DNA of 64,000 nucleotides from Psilocybe cubensis (GCA_017499595.2 CM039004.1:2356001-2420000), one strand, 5' to 3'; counted from the first letter of the stretch, positions 37,856 through 44,397 are shown. Numbers and translations are program-made. Notes: generated by a model not told the origin, from the letters alone.

Positions 37856-39608
37856 ATGCCCGCAAACTCTGGCCGCGTTCTTCTCGCTTACTCTGGAGGT
37901 TTGGGTCAGTCTCCATGTGCATTCTCTTTCGCCGCGTCGTCTCATTTCAAATCAAGATACCTCCTGTATCCTCGCCTGGCTGATCGAGCAGGGATACGAG
38001 GTCTATGCTTTCATGGCCGACGTTGGTCAGGAAGAGGTAAATGGGCTCGTTTTGACGATTCCACATCCATAACTTGATCTCTTTCACAGGACTTTGCTGC
38101 GGCTGAGGCAAAGGCTCTCAAAGTCGGTGCCAAGAAATTCTTCCTGGAGGTGACTCGACAATAAATATAAACTAAGGGAACGATTTCTTACTCTTCTTTA
38201 TCTCAGGACTTGAAGCGCGAGTTCGTGACTGAGCTCATCTACCCTGCCGTCCAGGCCAACTGCATTTACGAGGTATCTATTTAATTTTTGCGTCAATCTC
38301 CAACGATAATTTATCGGTTTTCAGAATGTCTACCTTCTTGGTACTTCACTTGCCCGGCCAGTTATTGCGCGTGGCATGATTGCTGTCGCCGAACGCGAAG
38401 GCTGCGAGTAAGTTTAAATGCTGAATAGAGGCATTCCTTTATGATTTTTCTAAAACTTTGTCTCAACTAACTTGACCTTCCCAGCTACGTCTCTCACGGA
38501 TGCACCGGCAAAGGAAACGATCAAGTTCGATTTGAACTTGCTTTCTACGGATTGAAGCCAGACATCAAGGTTATTGCTCCTTGGCGTCTCCCTGGTGCGT
38601 TCTACGCAATATTATACTCGTATGCTCGTGATCCCTAATTTTTGCATTAGACTTCTACAATCGATTCCCTGGTCGTCAATCTTTGCTTGCCTATGCCGAA
38701 AAATCTGGCATTCCCGTTGTCCAAACCGCGGCTAAGCCATGGTCGACGGATGAGAACTTGTTCCACATCTCGTACGAGGCCGGAATTCTGGAGGACCCCA
38801 ACGTCACTCCCCCTGCTGATATGTGGAAGCTGACCACTGCTCCCGAAGATGCACCCACTCAACCGGAGCGCATTGCCATCGAATTCAAGGCTGGTCTCCC
38901 CACTCGCGTTGTTGTCCCTGAGCAAGCCAAAGAATACACCGACGCTGTTGAAATCTTCCTCGCCCTCAATGCTCTCGGAAGGAAACATGGTATTGGTAGA
39001 ATCGACATCGTTGAGAACCGATTCATCGGCGTGAAGTCCCGTGGTTGCTACGAATCTCCTGGAGCTACTATTCTCCGTGCCGCACACGTCGATCTCGAAG
39101 GTCTTACTCTCGACAGGAACGTCCGCGCACTCCGCGATCAGTTCACCACCATTGAATTTAGCCGAATCCTCTATAACGGCCATTTCTTCACCCCCGAGCG
39201 CGAGTTCATCACCAGCTCCATCCCTGCCAGCCAAAGGACCGTCAACGGTCTCGTCAAATTGAAGCTCTACAAGGGCAACGTCGTCATTGAGGGACGTGAG
39301 AGCTCTGAGGTTTGTTTCTATTTAGCACATTGAAAATACGAGCGACTCATGACCGGATTTTCATTTTCAGGGTCTTTACGATGAACAGCAATCCTCCATG
39401 GACGAGCTGGGCGGATTTGAGCCAACTGACACAACTGGCTTTATTGCCATCGAGTCAATTCGCATCAAAAAGTATGTGACGCGTTCCGTGCAACTATTAA
39501 TCAGTTTCCTGATCATCATTGTTACTTTCGTCAAGGTGGGCGCAAGCCAACATTCGCAAGGGTCAAGCCGGTGTTGCTCCCAAGGATGTTTATGGTAGCC
39601 GAGTTTAA
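37856..39608 (+). CDS. ARG1: Argininosuccinate synthase
   Basis: [44 protein letters not shown] and [11 protein letters not shown] motifs. Confidence 0.97.
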
Positions 39609-40067
39609 AAGAGGAACATATGTCTCCCTCCTTTAATGTATTTGTTGGTTGCCATTAAAATATACAAATGTAAGTAATAAATAGTGTGTAGTAGACATTC
39701 CTATAGAGCAGGGTGTCGAGTGAAAAATGTAAGATGTCAATTCAAGTATACATGATCAATGCAAGCTTGGTACGCCTGAAAACACCCAGGGAGGTAATGA
39801 ACCAGCTTCTACCTTCGTAGGTGATACTGGAAAAGATGTGCGATAACCAATGATAGGATAAAATGCACGTCTATCTTGCTGCGGAGATGATCGATAGGCG
39901 CCCTTTTGAATGTGCCAATTGTCATAGTTAGTCGGATTGCCGGGTGACACCCTAAAATTCGCGTTGTGCAGCGCAAATGCAAACAGGGTAAAACCCGCAG
40001 GAGGCGATCGCAAGTCAATTGCAAGTGGAAGAGAACGAAGAAACAGGTAGGTTGTCATGCGCTTGGG

Positions 40068-41301
40068 CTATCGGAGGCGGTGCAGCAAGTTCGAGCATTT
40101 GATTTCAAGCAATGTAGCACCTAACAGGGATTCGGGCGGTATAATATTATCCGCGTTGCCGACAGCAAACGTTTTCCGCTCCTGAGTCATAAAAAACTTG
40201 ACGCCTTTTCTGGCTGCTAGTTCGGAGTCAACAGAGACACATAGGCGCTCTTTTCGTGAAGGGAAGTGCATGGCTGAGAAACATATAAGCGAGTGCCAAG
40301 TTGAAACATTGTTTTATAAGCTCACTTTCGAACAGAACATTTTCTAGTGTGCGATACAGCCGTATGCGATCTAATTCGGTCTCAGATAATAATATTCCCT
40401 GTTTCCCTGCAAATGAACAATAAGTAAAATGGAAGAAAAGGGGCCAAAGGGTACTGACGAATCAATTCAGAGTCGTTGGGGTCGCAGATGCAATATACTG
40501 TTTTCAATTTTACCATATTCAGAATCCGATGGTGGGAGCTGTCTACACCCTTCAATTATGAAGACCTATGAGTATCATGCAGGGCCAAGAAGTCTTCGAT
40601 AACTTACAGGGATCGTATGTGCCCGCTTTGCCCTTACCCACCATACATCCTGAAGTTTTCCATCAATCAATTCAGGCAAATGTGCCAAATCGAACTCTTT
40701 CGCTGGATCTTTCAAGACATGATCTGCAAACAGTTCAAAGGTGTAATCTTTGAAGAACTCGTGGCGCATCTGATATTATAAATAGGTTAATTGGCTGTCG
40801 AAAATGAGAGATTCAAAGAACACTGACAATATCGGAAACGCGAACAAAACCGTCCGGAAGGATTTTAAGGCCTTTCTTTTTGGCAGTATGGCGTAATATT
40901 TCTCTGCAAACTGTGACAAACGCATTGACTCCTTTGGCCTCCTCTTTGTCTTTAAGCTTTTGTGGGTTGTATATGAGCGGAGTGTTGGATCTGAACTTTC
41001 TGGGTTTATCGGTGACAAATTGCTCCTGAAGCAGTGTCTCCTCTGCCTCCTTCAGAGACTTGTTGACATTGACTGACGATGCCAAGATGTGTTCGTTAGG
41101 CGGTAGAAGGATAATTGGTTTGTTGACCCTCTCAGATGAGTTTGGGTCGAACTTGAGTAAAGAGTTTGATTGGCTTTTTGTTTTGGTCCAAGTTTTTGGT
41201 TTGCTGCCAACCTTCCGAACGCCAATACACGCGAGAAGAACCTTCGGGACTGTACGTCGTGTATGTGCATGTTGTCCGCCTCTGAGCAGTCCTGTCAGCA
41301 T
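40068..41301 (-). CDS. Divergent Tpt1/KptA (tRNA 2'-phosphotransferase)-like protein with a basic N-terminal extension
   Basis: EILRHTAKKKGLKILPDGFVRVSDI, WVRAKRAHTIPG and VSVDSELAARKGVKFF...GNADNIIPP follow the Tpt1 motif order across 5 exons. Confidence 0.72.
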
Positions 41302-41624
41302 TGTCCCAGAAATATTAGTGATTACAAAAAGCGGGAGGCGGAAATTATGATATCGGAATAGAATCGAGAGTTTGGGGAACCGACATACGGACAACGTCAA
41401 CTAGTGGAGGGAAGAGTGAAGGCAGAGTAAAGGTACCGCAAAATTTGGCCCCAAATGTCATCACGTGAGTCGCCGTGAACGGTGAATACAGCGATTAGCT
41501 CAACATTAACTACGTTGTTCTACTATGGCTGGTGTTTGAGAATATAAATTACTTAAGGCAGTAAATGCGTATAAGAAGTGTTATATATTACTTTAATCGA
41601 ATCACTGGGAAATATTTTCAAATT

Positions 41625-44397
41625 TCAACCAGCGCGCGCTTTCTTGGTTCTTCGCCCACCGTCACTTTCAACTTTTTGAGGACTTACGCCTGGAGTTGAC
41701 TGTCGCGTGTTATAACCGGAGTTTGTCGCGCTTGTGGGAACAGATTTTGGAATCCCCAACTTTTTCTGCAATTGCTGAAGCCATTTACCACCATCTGCTC
41801 CCTCAAAAAGCCATACGTGACTAGCGGAAAAGAAAGTCAACAAAGATCAGGTGCAGGAATAAGTGACCAACCTCTCGCCAACCCTTTCTGGATCTCTTGA
41901 AGAAGAGAAGTCACTATCGTCAGCCGATGCCCTTTTCTTCAAGTTTCCTCGCGGTGGTTGCAACCTGGTGGTAGGAGCATTGAGGTTCGACGTCGGTATA
42001 ATCTCAGGTGGAGGTGGTAGCTCCCATCCAAGTTCCTTCGCAAGGTGTAAAACGATACTATCCGCATTCCCGAGAAGGACTATCTGAGCTATAAATCAGT
42101 ACCGAATTATCCCTACACTTTCTCAGAAGGCCTCCGAGAAGATACGAGATCCGACGTACATCTGGGTTTATGTGCCGTATAGGAGTTTTATTGATAAGGA
42201 TCTGCATTGGGTATTAGTGTGGACGATTTGAACCAAAGCGATTAATGTCCATACCTGAGGTATGGAATGAGGGAGGTGGGCTGCACTACATTAATCTTGG
42301 ATCATAGCGGAGCGGGCGCAGAATACATACAAAGTATTTCTGCCACAGGTGACACCTTCAAGGAAGTACCGATTACAAGGAGTAAATCGACTCTAAAACG
42401 ATCTTCCGCCAACGAATGGTCGAAATCATCGGTTAATTTTTCGCCGAAAAATGTAATGTCTGGCTGAGCGTATCAATGCAAGGTCAGTTCCTTCAAAAAT
42501 AGTGGGGATAAGGTAGATAGCGAATCACTTTCATAATACCAGGAGGATATTCGGGCGCGTCGCTTTCGTCTTCAACATCACTATCCCACTGGCCTTTGGC
42601 TTTCTTCTTGCTTGTTTTGCCCTTCTTTTTTATCGGAACTGACGGCACAGTATTGCATAATTTACAAAGTGGCACCTTGTGACTGAGGATTTCGGCTTCT
42701 ATTTCTACACCTGGGACTCGTTGGCGGCATTGAAGACAACTGGCAGTTGCAAACGATCCATGGCACTGTAGTACTTTCTTGACGCCCGCTAAAGTCTCTA
42801 AAGTGTCTATGTTTTGAGTATAATTCTGTAGCATAAAATGAGTGGAAAAAGGATAATAGCAAAATGAATTCTAATAAGCACCCTGAGTAGCTTTGAAAGA
42901 GTCCATTTAGAAAATTTCTCAGCATGAAGGCTAAACCAGATACCTTTCCTCGGTCTTCCACCGCTTTGATAAAACGATGGCAGGGAGAAGGGACAAAGTT
43001 TGAAGGATAGATCTGGCTGTTGTTGAAGATCGATTACCACAATTCATCGCCAATGCGTAGGTTTTACCTTGCAAAAGAGCTGGAAATAGTTAGATAGTAA
43101 TATGCATCGAATAAGATTTCACTACTTACTAGAAGACTGCGGATGTCAGAGTTAGTGATTGTTGAGCGCCCTTTCCTACTGATATACACCATTACAAAGA
43201 TACATACCAGATGGATTTTCTTTAAAGTAATGTATATCAAACCTGAGCCAGATCAGCTACTCCACAACCGATTCAACATTTAACACGTACATTTGCTGTG
43301 GGTCATCTAATTCGTACTCTCCTTTACCCTTTAATGACGCGTAGAGCCCGTCCCGAGAGCGGAAGTCAGGTATGCCGCATGATACACCTGAAGGATCGTC
43401 TGGAAAATGGATATGGAACACTTCAAAATGACACGCACTAATACCGGCACCTGTGAGAATGAGGATACGTTGTGATTTGCGGATGAGATCAACAGTATCG
43501 GCAATGGTATTATACTGAGGTAATTTGTCCCGATTCCGGAGTCTGTCAAAGTGTTATGGAGGTGCAACCATATTTTATTTAAGAAGGTGGCACACTGATG
43601 GGATAAGGCGACCCGTAGAAAGTATAGCATTGTTTTTGGTCGCCTGTCTTGTAATTCTGGACACTGCAAAGTGAGAACGCTTCAGGAGGTTCAAAACATC
43701 AGTAAGATATTTGTATCGTACCAATTCGATATTAAATGCCTCCAGAAGTTTGATTATTGGAATGTTACGCTGATTAACATATTCTTCGATAAAGGCTGAA
43801 GAGCCTGATGTATATCTTGGTAAATGCCTAAGAATAGACACATCGTAGACACCTACCGCTTTCTTTAAGGAGGTGCATCATCTGTTTTATTTCTTCTTTA
43901 CTCCATGTATTCTGTTCTGCGAGACGAGGTGTGCAGCTCAGTGGCTTTAGATATATAATCGTGAAGACAGATTATAATAACCTGCATTTTGTGCGCCCTC
44001 TGACTTGGGAGGAAAGAGTGTAGATATTTCTTGACCGTCCTCGTCATGCGAGTCGACATCCTCTTCAATGTGTAGGTCTGATGGAGGATCAGCTTCTTCT
44101 TCTTCATGTTCTTCGATGCTGATTAAGACAGAAAGTATATCCTCGATGGTTTCTGCGTCGACATCAACATCTTCCGAAGCTTCTAAAAAGGCCTGAACTT
44201 GTTGAGTCAAAATTTCATTTTGGAAGGAGGAAGTAGATTGCGCAGAAGCAGCAAGGGGGTCTCGGTGATCAGATTGATGGACGACACTTTCCGAGTCCAG
44301 AGTAACTGACACATGGCCAGCATCTACAAGCCGGGGGAGGGTGAGGCGAGTGAGCGATGAGGTTTGCCGCAAATAATAGTAGATAGCACAAACTCAT
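41625..44397 (-). CDS. SIR2: NAD+-dependent deacetylase, Sir2/Hst1-class sirtuin
   Basis: [33 protein letters not shown], CxxC...Cxx[19 protein letters not shown] and LLGNAD motifs, over many exons. Confidence 0.95.

What the first reader, a model, noticed from the sequence alone, without database searches (positions are those of the whole stretch)
40068..41301. Tpt1/KptA-fold probable pseudoenzyme with a possible mitochondrial presequence
Seen: Tpt1 motif order is kept and LRH is intact. However, KxRF reads PAKEF, RAxQGHS reads RAKRAHT, HGT is replaced by VYCIC, and GLxxMxRxHIHL reads GILLSETELDRIRLY. Known: Tpt1 catalysis needs an Arg-His-Arg-Arg tetrad and the HGT NAD+-binding motif. The N-terminus MLTGLLRGGQHAHTRR... 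is basic with no acidic residues. Inference: not the essential tRNA-splicing enzyme, but a repurposed RNA- or phosphate-binding paralog, perhaps mitochondrial. The frame is intact across 5 exons, suggesting it is under selection.
Basis: partly seen in the sequence, partly recalled or inferred. Interest (0 to 1): 0.7.

Follow-up and report, generated by a model that had tools for sequence, protein, structure and literature searches.

The report
Expressed dead Tpt1 paralog in Psilocybe
This mushroom gene is a transcribed, intact copy of the tRNA-splicing enzyme Tpt1 that has lost the residues needed for catalysis and NAD+ binding, and it belongs to a previously undescribed group of such "dead" copies found across gilled mushrooms.

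Summary
Window 40068-41301 (minus strand) is a five-exon, 337-codon gene. All four GT..AG introns are removed exactly in spliced contigs of two runs, and the joined frame is open. The database names the locus Psilocybe cubensis "tRNA 2'-phosphotransferase 1", but that public model has a wrong exon 3 and a wrong N-terminus.

The transcript-derived protein matches a canonical Agaricomycete Tpt1 profile over both lobes (70.7 bits, E 6e-24). It keeps only Arg137-His138 of the Arg-His-Arg-Arg tetrad. The third Arg is Glu183, the fourth is Leu254, and HGT is Cys-Ile-Cys.

It belongs to a divergent clade whose named members are all Agaricales. Sixteen of 59 fully covered hits lack both the fourth Arg and the HGT His. 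Six species carry a divergent and a canonical copy. Ortholog models fold as Tpt1 (Z 14.9).

Most likely it is a non-catalytic paralog, perhaps mitochondrial; composition is the only support for that. The canonical TPT1 of P. cubensis could not be located, and no dN/dS or targeting predictor could be run. I rate it a new variant of a known kind, of moderate interest.

The parts
41302..41425 (-). 5' UTR as far as the spliced contigs reach; holds a 13-codon out-of-frame uORF starting at 41386
   Evidence: Contig pieces 40828-41425 (X1) and 40828-41415 (X2) are unbroken. uATG list.
40828..41301 (-). Exon 1 (codons 1-158): N-terminal extension plus the start of the RNA lobe, including ILRH (40888-40899)
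   Evidence: Pfam PF01885 hit on this piece, E 1.4e-4.
41149..41301 (-). Codons 1-51: basic, acid-free, presequence-like N-terminus
   Evidence: First acidic residue at 52. The same start pattern is present in orthologs P0205, P0002, P0003 and P0004.
40770..40827 (-). Intron 1 (58 nt, GTCAGT..CAG)
   Evidence: Joint 40769/40828 in X1 and X2. Splice sites.
40608..40769 (-). Exon 2 (codons 159-212): rest of the RNA lobe. AKEF at 40692-40703 (third tetrad Arg replaced by Glu183); RAKRAHT at 40614-40634
40550..40607 (-). Intron 2 (58 nt, GTAAGT..AAG); the public gene model uses another acceptor here
   Evidence: Joint 40548/40607 with cut +1. P0001 sequence.
40459..40549 (-). Exon 3: first strands of the degenerate NAD+ lobe. 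YCIC at 40484-40495 replaces vHGT
   Evidence: The same exon content is present in P0205 and P0003.
40407..40458 (-). Intron 3 (52 nt, GTCAGT..CAG)
40326..40406 (-). Exon 4: LDRIRL at 40357-40374 replaces RxHIHL (fourth tetrad Arg replaced by Leu254)
40274..40325 (-). Intron 4 (52 nt, GTGAGC..CAG)
40068..40273 (-). Exon 5 with the stop codon: C-terminal part of the NAD+-like lobe (NGV motif reads ERK)
39536..40067 (-). 3' UTR region covered by the same contig, which then runs on into a convergent neighbour's transcript
   Evidence: Contig piece 39536-40273 and the loose end before 39536.

Best explanation
Shown: the locus is an expressed nuclear gene of Psilocybe cubensis for a 337-residue paralog of the RNA 2'-phosphotransferase Tpt1/KptA. 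The protein has an N-terminal extension of about 130 residues, followed by the two Tpt1 lobes: a winged-helix RNA lobe and an ADP-ribosyltransferase-like lobe. The active site is dismantled. Only the Arg-His pair of LRH is left. The Arg that clamps the transferred 2'-phosphate is Glu. The fourth tetrad Arg is Leu. The His-Gly-Thr that holds the NAD+ ribose is Cys-Ile-Cys, and the Arg arch over ADP-ribose is gone.

Inferred: it cannot perform NAD+-dependent 2'-phosphate removal and is not the tRNA-splicing enzyme. It arose by duplication of the canonical Tpt1 within or near the base of Agaricales. It has been kept as a non-catalytic protein that most likely still binds RNA through the better-conserved winged-helix lobe, with the dead NAD+ lobe serving as a scaffold.

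Inferred more weakly (about 45%): the basic, acid-free N-terminus, which is shared in pattern with orthologs, directs it into mitochondria.
For: - Spliced, open frame.
- Family match over both lobes: 70.7 bits, E 6e-24. P0001 scores 47.3 bits in Pfam against a cut-off of 26.
- Residue states at the tetrad, HGT, SGMR and NGV columns. The roles of these residues come from passages of PMC6333775. PMC8051265 states that the tetrad is conserved in all Tpt1 homologs.
- Clade: of 80 hits at E <= 1e-3, 59 cover all key columns. Of these, 39 have RHRR+HGT intact and 16 lack both the fourth Arg and the HGT His. All 18 divergent proteins with a name come from Agaricales.
- Tree: 17 of 18 divergent rows form one group (SH-aLRT 94). 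One clade for all 18 is not rejected (p-AU 0.449).
- Canonical and divergent copies occur in the same species in Mycena epipterygia, M. latifolia, M. crocata, M. galericulata, Crucibulum laeve and Coprinopsis marcescibilis.
- Constraint: within the close group, the RNA lobe is 49.0% identical against 53.9% among canonical enzymes. The NAD+ lobe is 38.7% identical against 64.2%.
- The P. cyanescens ortholog is collinear from Met1 to the C-terminus at 58% identity.
- Ortholog models: the domain has pLDDT mostly above 90. The best solved matches are all Tpt1/KptA/TRPT1: Z 14.9 to 7yw2 (191 aligned, rmsd 12.1) and Z 14.3 to 9ld4_A (173 aligned, rmsd 6.1).
- N-terminus: the first acidic residue is at position 52. 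In divergent proteins the first acidic residue lies later: median 26.5 in 18 divergent proteins against 5 in 110 canonical ones, and 10 of 18 against 21 of 110 at position 25 or later.
Against: - The canonical TPT1 of P. cubensis was not located, so 'paralog beside a working enzyme' is inferred from other species. None of those species is from the window's own subgroup.
- The window's own spliced protein could not be folded. The fold evidence comes from orthologs, modelled with alignments that include canonical Tpt1, which pulls the models towards that fold.
- Residue assignments depend on the alignment. Arg256 and Arg258 lie two and four residues after the lost fourth Arg, are kept in P. cyanescens, and might reach the site.
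- Glu183 reverses the charge in the phosphate pocket, which argues against phosphate recognition of the Tpt1 kind.
- The protein evolves fast: end branch 1.07 against a median of 0.48, and only 58% identity between two Psilocybe species. This could reflect weak constraint.
- For mitochondrial import: no predictor was run. The maximal hydrophobic moment of the N-terminus (0.97) is among the lower values. Also, 21 of 110 canonical proteins have long acid-free starts. The Mann-Whitney comparison ignores relatedness.
Confidence: 0.6

Rival explanations
1. It is the same dead paralog, but it is not mitochondrial. On this reading the long N-terminal extension is a disordered interaction or regulatory region of a cytosolic or nuclear RNA-binding protein.
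For: - The N-terminal 110-135 residues are low-confidence or disordered in both ortholog models.
- Short motifs inside the extension are conserved among the Psilocybe sequences, which is unusual for a cleaved presequence plus linker.
- The hydrophobic moment is not distinctive.
- Acid-free starts also occur in 21 of 110 canonical Tpt1 proteins.
Against: - The first 51 residues have no acidic residue and are rich in Arg/Lys/Ser/Thr.
- Presequence-like starts recur in both divergent subgroups.
- The first acidic residue is significantly later than in canonical proteins.
Confidence: 0.2
2. It is still an enzyme. On this reading it is a Tpt1-derived transferase or phosphoesterase with a rebuilt active site (for example using Arg256/Arg258 and the retained Arg137-His138) and another substrate or cofactor.
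For: - Arg-His of LRH and the R-A-x-x-x-H-[ST] motif are retained.
- Two arginines replace the two histidines of HIHL in both Psilocybe species.
- The close group has its own conserved motifs.
Against: - All residues shown to contact NAD+/ADP-ribose or the transferred phosphate are changed, apart from Arg137 and His138.
- The replacements are not conserved across the clade. The fourth-Arg column reads L, Q, E, D, G, Y, T and N.
- The NAD+ lobe is far less conserved than in canonical enzymes: 38.7% against 64.2%.
Confidence: 0.1
3. It is a transcribed relic on its way to loss. On this reading the frame is still open only by chance and the protein has no function.
For: - Long terminal branch.
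- Only 58% identity to the P. cyanescens ortholog.
- In Psilocybe and Agrocybe pediades the third tetrad Arg is lost as well, whereas most clade members keep it.
Against: - The frame is open over 337 codons and four correctly spliced introns.
- Intact collinear orthologs exist in more than ten genera.
- RNA-lobe identity inside the group (49.0%) is close to that of the essential enzyme (53.9%).
- No difference from the window lies in the CDS in the two DNA runs. This is weak: only 4 differences in 2501 bases.
Confidence: 0.08
4. It is the organism's only Tpt1 and does the tRNA-splicing job with an unorthodox active site.
For: - The public record names it tRNA 2'-phosphotransferase 1.
- No other Tpt1 of P. 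cubensis was seen.
Against: - Only 120 of 835 hits were listed, and no genome could be searched, so the absence is untested.
- The tetrad is essential in every Tpt1 tested (passages).
- Six Agaricales species with a divergent copy also have a canonical one.
Confidence: 0.02

Closest known systems
Canonical fungal Tpt1 (RNA 2'-phosphotransferase, Pfam PF01885), e.g. Amanita phalloides P0070, yeast Tpt1 (7yw4), Clostridium thermocellum Tpt1 (6e3a)
   Same: Homologous over both lobes. Same motif order. Arg-His of LRH is kept. Ortholog models show the same two-lobe fold.
   Different: The third and fourth tetrad Arg, HGT, SGMR and NGV are all replaced. Pfam scores are 46.6-95.9 bits in clade members against 223.2 bits for the canonical protein. 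There is an N-terminal extension of about 130 residues. The enzyme function is therefore very unlikely to be retained.
Mammalian TRPT1 (7yw2, 7yw3)
   Same: Best structural matches of both ortholog models: Z 14.5-14.9 with 190-191 residues aligned. TRPT1 is a non-essential Tpt1 homolog in an organism that does not need it for tRNA splicing (passage).
   Different: TRPT1 is an active NAD+-dependent enzyme (abstracts listed, PMC10415124 and PMC12678800). This protein lacks the residues for that activity.
Catalytically inactive ADP-ribosyltransferase-fold proteins such as PARP13/ZAP (recalled, not tested here)
   Same: An ART-fold lobe whose NAD+-binding His is replaced (Tyr in most clade members, Cys here), joined to an RNA-binding module.
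   Different: Different ART subfamily, different RNA-binding domain and no shared ancestry beyond the fold. This is only an analogy for how a dead ART lobe can persist.
Bacterial 'dead' Tpt1 homolog noted earlier in this scan (e1-1391226)
   Same: A Tpt1/KptA homolog with a substituted catalytic tetrad that appears to be kept by selection (note, unchecked).
   Different: It is prokaryotic, sits in an operon and has an independent origin. It says nothing about the fungal clade.
La-motif winged-helix RNA-binding domains (La, LARP1)
   Same: The RNA lobe of the ortholog models aligns to La motifs at Z 7.2-8.9 over 77-89 residues. PMC6333775 reports the same likeness for Tpt1.
   Different: This is fold-level likeness only, in a Z range that the tool warns is common. 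No La-specific residues were checked.

Membership tests
Tpt1/KptA family (PF01885), as a homology family | Sequence match to the family profile above the curated cut-off, covering both lobes | tested here: met
   - P0001 (NCBI model): 47.3 bits against a cut-off of 26, but profile positions 13-86 of 177 only.
- Transcript-derived protein: 70.7 bits, E 6e-24, positions 43-221 of a 298-state canonical Agaricomycete HMM.
- Orthologs P0003 and P0004 cover Pfam profile positions 3-169 and 3-174 of 177.
Tpt1/KptA family, fold | Winged-helix RNA lobe plus ADP-ribosyltransferase-like NAD+ lobe | tested here: met
   Tested on ortholog models only (P0003 and P0205), not on the window's own protein.
- The 21 Foldseek hits at E <= 1e-3 are all Tpt1/KptA/TRPT1 (18 of them shown).
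- VIA Z 14.5 and Z 14.9.
- The alignments used for modelling included canonical Tpt1.
Tpt1 RNA 2'-phosphotransferase, as an enzyme | [quoted passage not shown] | tested here: not met
   Arg137 and His138 are kept. The third Arg is Glu183 and the fourth Arg is Leu254. The tetrad is defined in passages of PMC6333775 and PMC8051265.
Tpt1 RNA 2'-phosphotransferase, as an enzyme | His-Gly-Thr contacts to the ADP-ribose 2'-OH of NAD+ | tested here: not met
   Cys232-Ile233-Cys234 lie at the HGT columns. The role of His/Thr comes from PMC6333775.
Tpt1 RNA 2'-phosphotransferase, as an enzyme | NAD+-dependent removal of an internal RNA 2'-PO4; complementation of yeast tpt1-delta | not testable with these tools
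   Needs a bench assay.
Mitochondrial matrix-targeted proteins | N-terminal basic, acid-free, amphipathic presequence with a processing site | tested here: inconclusive
   - Composition fits: no D/E in residues 1-51, and 9 K/R in residues 1-40.
- The maximal hydrophobic moment of 0.97 is not distinctive.
- No TargetP or MitoFates was available and no cleavage site was called.
Pseudogene (non-functional relic) | Disrupted frame, loss of splicing or expression, absence of conserved orthologs | tested here: not met
   Open frame and four exact splices in RNA-derived contigs. Collinear orthologs exist.

The most novel reading that the evidence does not exclude
Gilled mushrooms carry an order-wide family of mitochondrion-targeted, catalytically dead Tpt1 proteins. 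These proteins would have been recruited as RNA-binding factors, for example for mitochondrial RNA ends or tRNA-like structures. That would make them the first Tpt1-derived pseudoenzymes with a cellular role of their own.
Probability: 0.25. Interest if true: 0.7.

Novelty: new variant of a known kind. Interest (0 to 1): 0.5.

Why it matters
Tpt1 is treated in the literature as an enzyme whose Arg-His-Arg-Arg tetrad is conserved in all homologs (PMC8051265, passage read), and it is discussed there as an antifungal target. This locus shows that a whole order of fungi keeps, transcribes and conserves a second Tpt1-derived gene in which that site is gone.

There are two consequences:
- Practical: public records name this gene "tRNA 2'-phosphotransferase 1", and the P. 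cubensis model has a wrong exon and a wrong start. Automatic annotation and ortholog calls for TPT1 in Agaricales are therefore unreliable.
- Biological: it offers a natural case of what the Tpt1 scaffold can do without NAD+ chemistry. If import is confirmed, it would also be a lead to an unknown RNA-binding function in fungal mitochondria.

Two full-text searches found no paper that links Tpt1/KptA with a pseudoenzyme or with Agaricales.

Tried and rejected
- Whole-genome search for PF01885: no genome is held for this window.
- Pfam on single exon pieces: only exon 1 gave a weak hit (E 1.4e-4, below the cut-off). Exons 2-5 gave no PF01885 hit.
- Sequence search of solved structures with P0001: only TRPT1, at E 0.48.
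- Sequencing-run search: no RNA holder is listed by record. X1 and X2 are labelled 'RNA? (a guess)'. I treat them as RNA-derived only because their contigs lack five GT..AG introns that the DNA runs X3 and X4 keep. Depth was not used to rank expression.
- Alternative exon 3 as in the public model (frame reading VFIIEG...): rejected. The contigs join 40608 to 40549, and P0205, P0003 and P0004 have the other exon content. With the public exon the HMM match breaks into two pieces.
- Public N-terminus (start at about 41461 with an extra intron): not supported. The contigs are unspliced from 40828 to 41415/41425, and orthologs start at the position of the 41301 ATG. The contigs do not reach 41461, so an upstream start is not excluded.
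- Canonical Tpt1 inside the window: tblastn with P0070, P0035 and P0202 found only this locus at E <= 0.055; other matches had E >= 0.88.
- Canonical Tpt1 of P. cubensis in the protein collection: not among the 120 listed of 835 hits.
- Folding the window's own spliced protein: not possible, because the tools take only unspliced window translations or database proteins. Orthologs were folded instead.
- Earlier notes of the scan on this genome: none.
- Supplementary files of papers were not opened. They are not needed for any claim here.

Full report
**What is at the coordinates**

The region reads as a minus-strand eukaryotic gene with short introns. No whole genome is held for the window.

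Two public runs, X1 and X2, from one study hold contigs that cover the locus but skip four stretches: 40770-40827, 40550-40607, 40407-40458 and 40274-40325. All four are GT..AG on the minus strand. Two DNA runs from a second study, X3 and X4, carry the locus unspliced in one piece. The X1/X2 contigs also skip a fifth intron, 41821-41871, in the next gene upstream. Their records do not say RNA, but exact removal of five introns is what cDNA gives.

Joining the exons by coordinates gives 1014 nt, that is 337 codons and a single terminal stop.

**Identity and the public gene model**

Exon 1 is 100% identical to a 345-residue database protein, P0001, named tRNA 2'-phosphotransferase 1 of Psilocybe cubensis. 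That model differs from the transcript in two places:
- It uses another acceptor and donor for exon 3, giving 18 unrelated residues instead of the 30 whole codons that hold the HGT-equivalent.
- It starts at an upstream ATG with an extra 5' intron.

The contigs are unspliced from 40828 to 41415/41425. The orthologs P0205 (Psilocybe cyanescens), P0002, P0003 and P0004 all start at the position of the 41301 ATG and have the transcript's exon 3. The contigs do not reach the upstream ATG, so that start is not strictly excluded.

**Family membership**

Single exon pieces barely register in Pfam. P0001 passes PF01885 at 47.3 bits against a cut-off of 26, but only over profile positions 13-86.

I built an HMM from 116 canonical Agaricomycete Tpt1 proteins returned. 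Against it, the transcript-derived protein gives one domain of 70.7 bits, E 6e-24 (Z=1). The domain spans residues 135-317 and both lobes. P0001 breaks into two pieces.

Clade members score 46.6-95.9 bits in Pfam over nearly the whole profile. A canonical Amanita protein scores 223.2 bits.

**The active site**

Passages of PMC6333775 define the tetrad in the Clostridium enzyme as Arg18, His19, Arg68 and Arg121:
- Arg18 and Arg68 clamp the transferred phosphate.
- His19, Arg18 and Arg121 hold the 3'-phosphate.
- His101 and Thr103 bond to the ADP-ribose 2'-OH.
- Arg139 and Arg140 arch over ADP-ribose.

PMC8051265 states that the tetrad is conserved in all Tpt1 homologs.

In the HMM alignment and column table the window's protein reads as follows:

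| Canonical motif | Window protein | Residues | Consequence |
|---|---|---|---|
| LLRH | ILRH | 135-138 | Arg and His kept |
| KxRF | AKEF | 181-184 | Lys to Ala, Arg to Glu |
| RAxQGHS | RAKRAHT | 204-210 | changed at four positions; the His is kept |
| vHGT | YCIC | 231-234 | His-Gly-Thr to Cys-Ile-Cys |
| RxHIHL | LDRIRL | 254-259 | Arg to Leu, both His to Arg |
| SGMR | ETMH | 269-272 | motif lost |
| NGV | ERK | within 300-304 | motif lost |

Its tetrad bookkeeping needs one correction: the tetrad His is the one in LRH, so two of four tetrad residues survive.

**A clade, not a one-off**

An exhaustive profile-free search with P0001 found 80 proteins at E <= 1e-3. Of the 59 that cover all key columns:
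- 39 have RHRR+HGT intact.
- 16 lack both the fourth Arg and the HGT His.
- The remaining 4 are mixed or alignment-ambiguous.

Every divergent protein that carries a name comes from Agaricales. The genera are Galerina, Agrocybe (two species), Flammula, Phlegmacium, Panaeolus, Crassisporium, Crepidotus, Pholiota, Psilocybe (three species counting the window), Crucibulum (two copies), Dendrothele, Mycena (several), Favolaschia and Coprinopsis.

In a 47-row tree, 17 of 18 divergent rows form one group (SH-aLRT 94, not starred). That group sits among Agaricales canonical proteins, with support of only 80. The window's protein groups with Agrocybe pediades and Galerina (99) and has a long end branch, 1.07 against a median of 0.48. 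Holding all 18 together costs 1.0 log-likelihood unit (p-AU 0.449), so a single origin is not excluded. Long branches make the placement uncertain.

Most members keep the third Arg and have Tyr for the HGT His. Psilocybe and Agrocybe pediades have lost the third Arg too.

**Is there a working Tpt1 beside it?**

A search with the canonical Amanita protein gave 835 hits, of which the best 120 are listed. Six species with a divergent copy also have a canonical one:
- Mycena epipterygia
- M. latifolia
- M. crocata
- M. galericulata
- Crucibulum laeve
- Coprinopsis marcescibilis

No P. cubensis canonical protein is in the listed 120, nor any from the window's own subgroup of genera. The window holds none either. 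This key refuter therefore stays untested. The inference rests on the essential role of the tetrad and on the other species.

**Constraint**

Within the close group, RNA-lobe identity is 49.0% (45 pairs) against 53.9% among 30 sampled canonical proteins. NAD+-lobe identity is 38.7% against 64.2%. The RNA lobe is thus kept about as well as in the essential enzyme, while the catalytic lobe has drifted but still aligns.

The P. cyanescens ortholog is collinear over 333 columns at 58% identity and shows the same losses. The DNA runs differ from the window at four places in 2501 bases: two in intron 2, two downstream of the CDS and none in the CDS. That is too few to test anything. No dN/dS could be computed.

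**Fold**

The window's own spliced product could not be handed to the structure tool, so two orthologs were modelled with family alignments. In both, the domain has pLDDT mostly above 90 and the N-terminal 110-135 residues fall below about 50.

All 21 Foldseek matches at E <= 1e-3 are Tpt1/KptA/TRPT1 (18 of them are shown). The VIA scores are:

| Model | Solved chain | Z | Residues aligned | rmsd (Å) |
|---|---|---|---|---|
| P0003 | 7yw2 | 14.5 | 190 | 11.8 |
| P0003 | 9ld4_A | 14.3 | 170 | 5.7 |
| P0205 | 7yw2 | 14.9 | 191 | 12.1 |
| P0205 | 9ld4_A | 14.3 | 173 | 6.1 |

The large rmsd values fit a different hinge angle between the two lobes. The yeast NAD+ lobe alone (7yw4) aligns at Z 9.6-10.2 with rmsd 3.0-3.3. 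The alignments used for modelling contained canonical Tpt1, so the fold result is not fully independent. No residue-level superposition is returned, so the tetrad assignment rests on the sequence alignment.

**The N-terminus**

Residues 1-51 hold no Asp or Glu, and there are 11 Lys/Arg in the first 55 residues. Orthologs share the start pattern, and both divergent subgroups often begin with presequence-like strings.

The first acidic residue lies later in divergent than in canonical proteins: median 26.5 in 18 proteins against 5 in 110, Mann-Whitney p 1.4e-5. At position 25 or later the counts are 10 of 18 against 21 of 110. That test ignores relatedness.

Three points count against import:
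- The hydrophobic moment is unremarkable.
- Some canonical proteins also have such starts.
- No targeting predictor was available.

A review passage records that plant tRNA-splicing enzymes are sent to organelles that have no such introns (PMC4090602). That is a precedent, not evidence.

**Reading**

The best-supported account is a non-catalytic Tpt1 paralog. It was born by duplication in or near the Agaricales and retained for something its winged-helix lobe does, probably RNA binding. It may act in mitochondria.

Rebuilt catalysis, decay and 'only Tpt1' are less likely, for the reasons given under the rivals.

Two full-text searches found no paper on a Tpt1 pseudoenzyme or on Tpt1 in Agaricales.

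Noticed in passing
window 40459-40565 and 41290-41461 (minus strand): The public protein model for this locus (P0001, 345 aa) uses a different exon 3 and an upstream start with an extra intron. The spliced contigs and four orthologs support neither. Its name, tRNA 2'-phosphotransferase 1, also overstates what the sequence supports.
   Followed up: yes
window about 39430-39600: The X1/X2 contig that carries this gene runs on past 39536 into sequence that matches the window near 39437-39466. This implies a + strand GT..AG intron of about 69 nt, and a convergent neighbour whose transcript end overlaps this gene's 3' UTR (loose end, read).
   Followed up: partly
window 41404-42000: The upstream minus-strand neighbour is also transcribed. 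It has a 51-nt intron at 41821-41871, and its contig overlaps the 5' end of this gene's contig by about 22 bases.
   Followed up: no
window 41386 (minus strand): The 5' UTR holds an out-of-frame upstream ATG that opens a 13-codon uORF.
   Followed up: no
proteins P0012, P0019, P0034, P0072 (one search hits): Some hits are long proteins with several tandem copies of the Tpt1 RNA lobe alone. P0012 (847 aa, metagenome) has 6 matched stretches, and P0019 (820 aa) comes from the chiton Liolophura sinensis. RNA-lobe-only arrays may be another non-enzymatic use of this domain.
   Followed up: no
canonical Agaricomycete Tpt1 proteins: 21 of 110 canonical proteins that start with Met have no acidic residue before position 25. 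Some, such as Lyophyllum atratum P0035 and Mycena epipterygia P0112, begin with presequence-like strings. This hints at dual targeting of the working enzyme, or at mis-called starts.
   Followed up: no
Crucibulum laeve P0020, P0044, P0202; Mycena epipterygia P0040, P0112; M. latifolia P0038, P0122: In each of these three species, the canonical and divergent copies are listed with the same longest-contig length. They may therefore lie on one contig. Linkage was not examined.
   Followed up: no
window 39548, 39631, 40572, 40590: The public runs differ from the window at four single bases. At 39548 and 39631 all four runs differ; at 40572 and 40590 (intron 2) the DNA runs X3/X4 differ. None lies in the coding sequence.
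   Followed up: no
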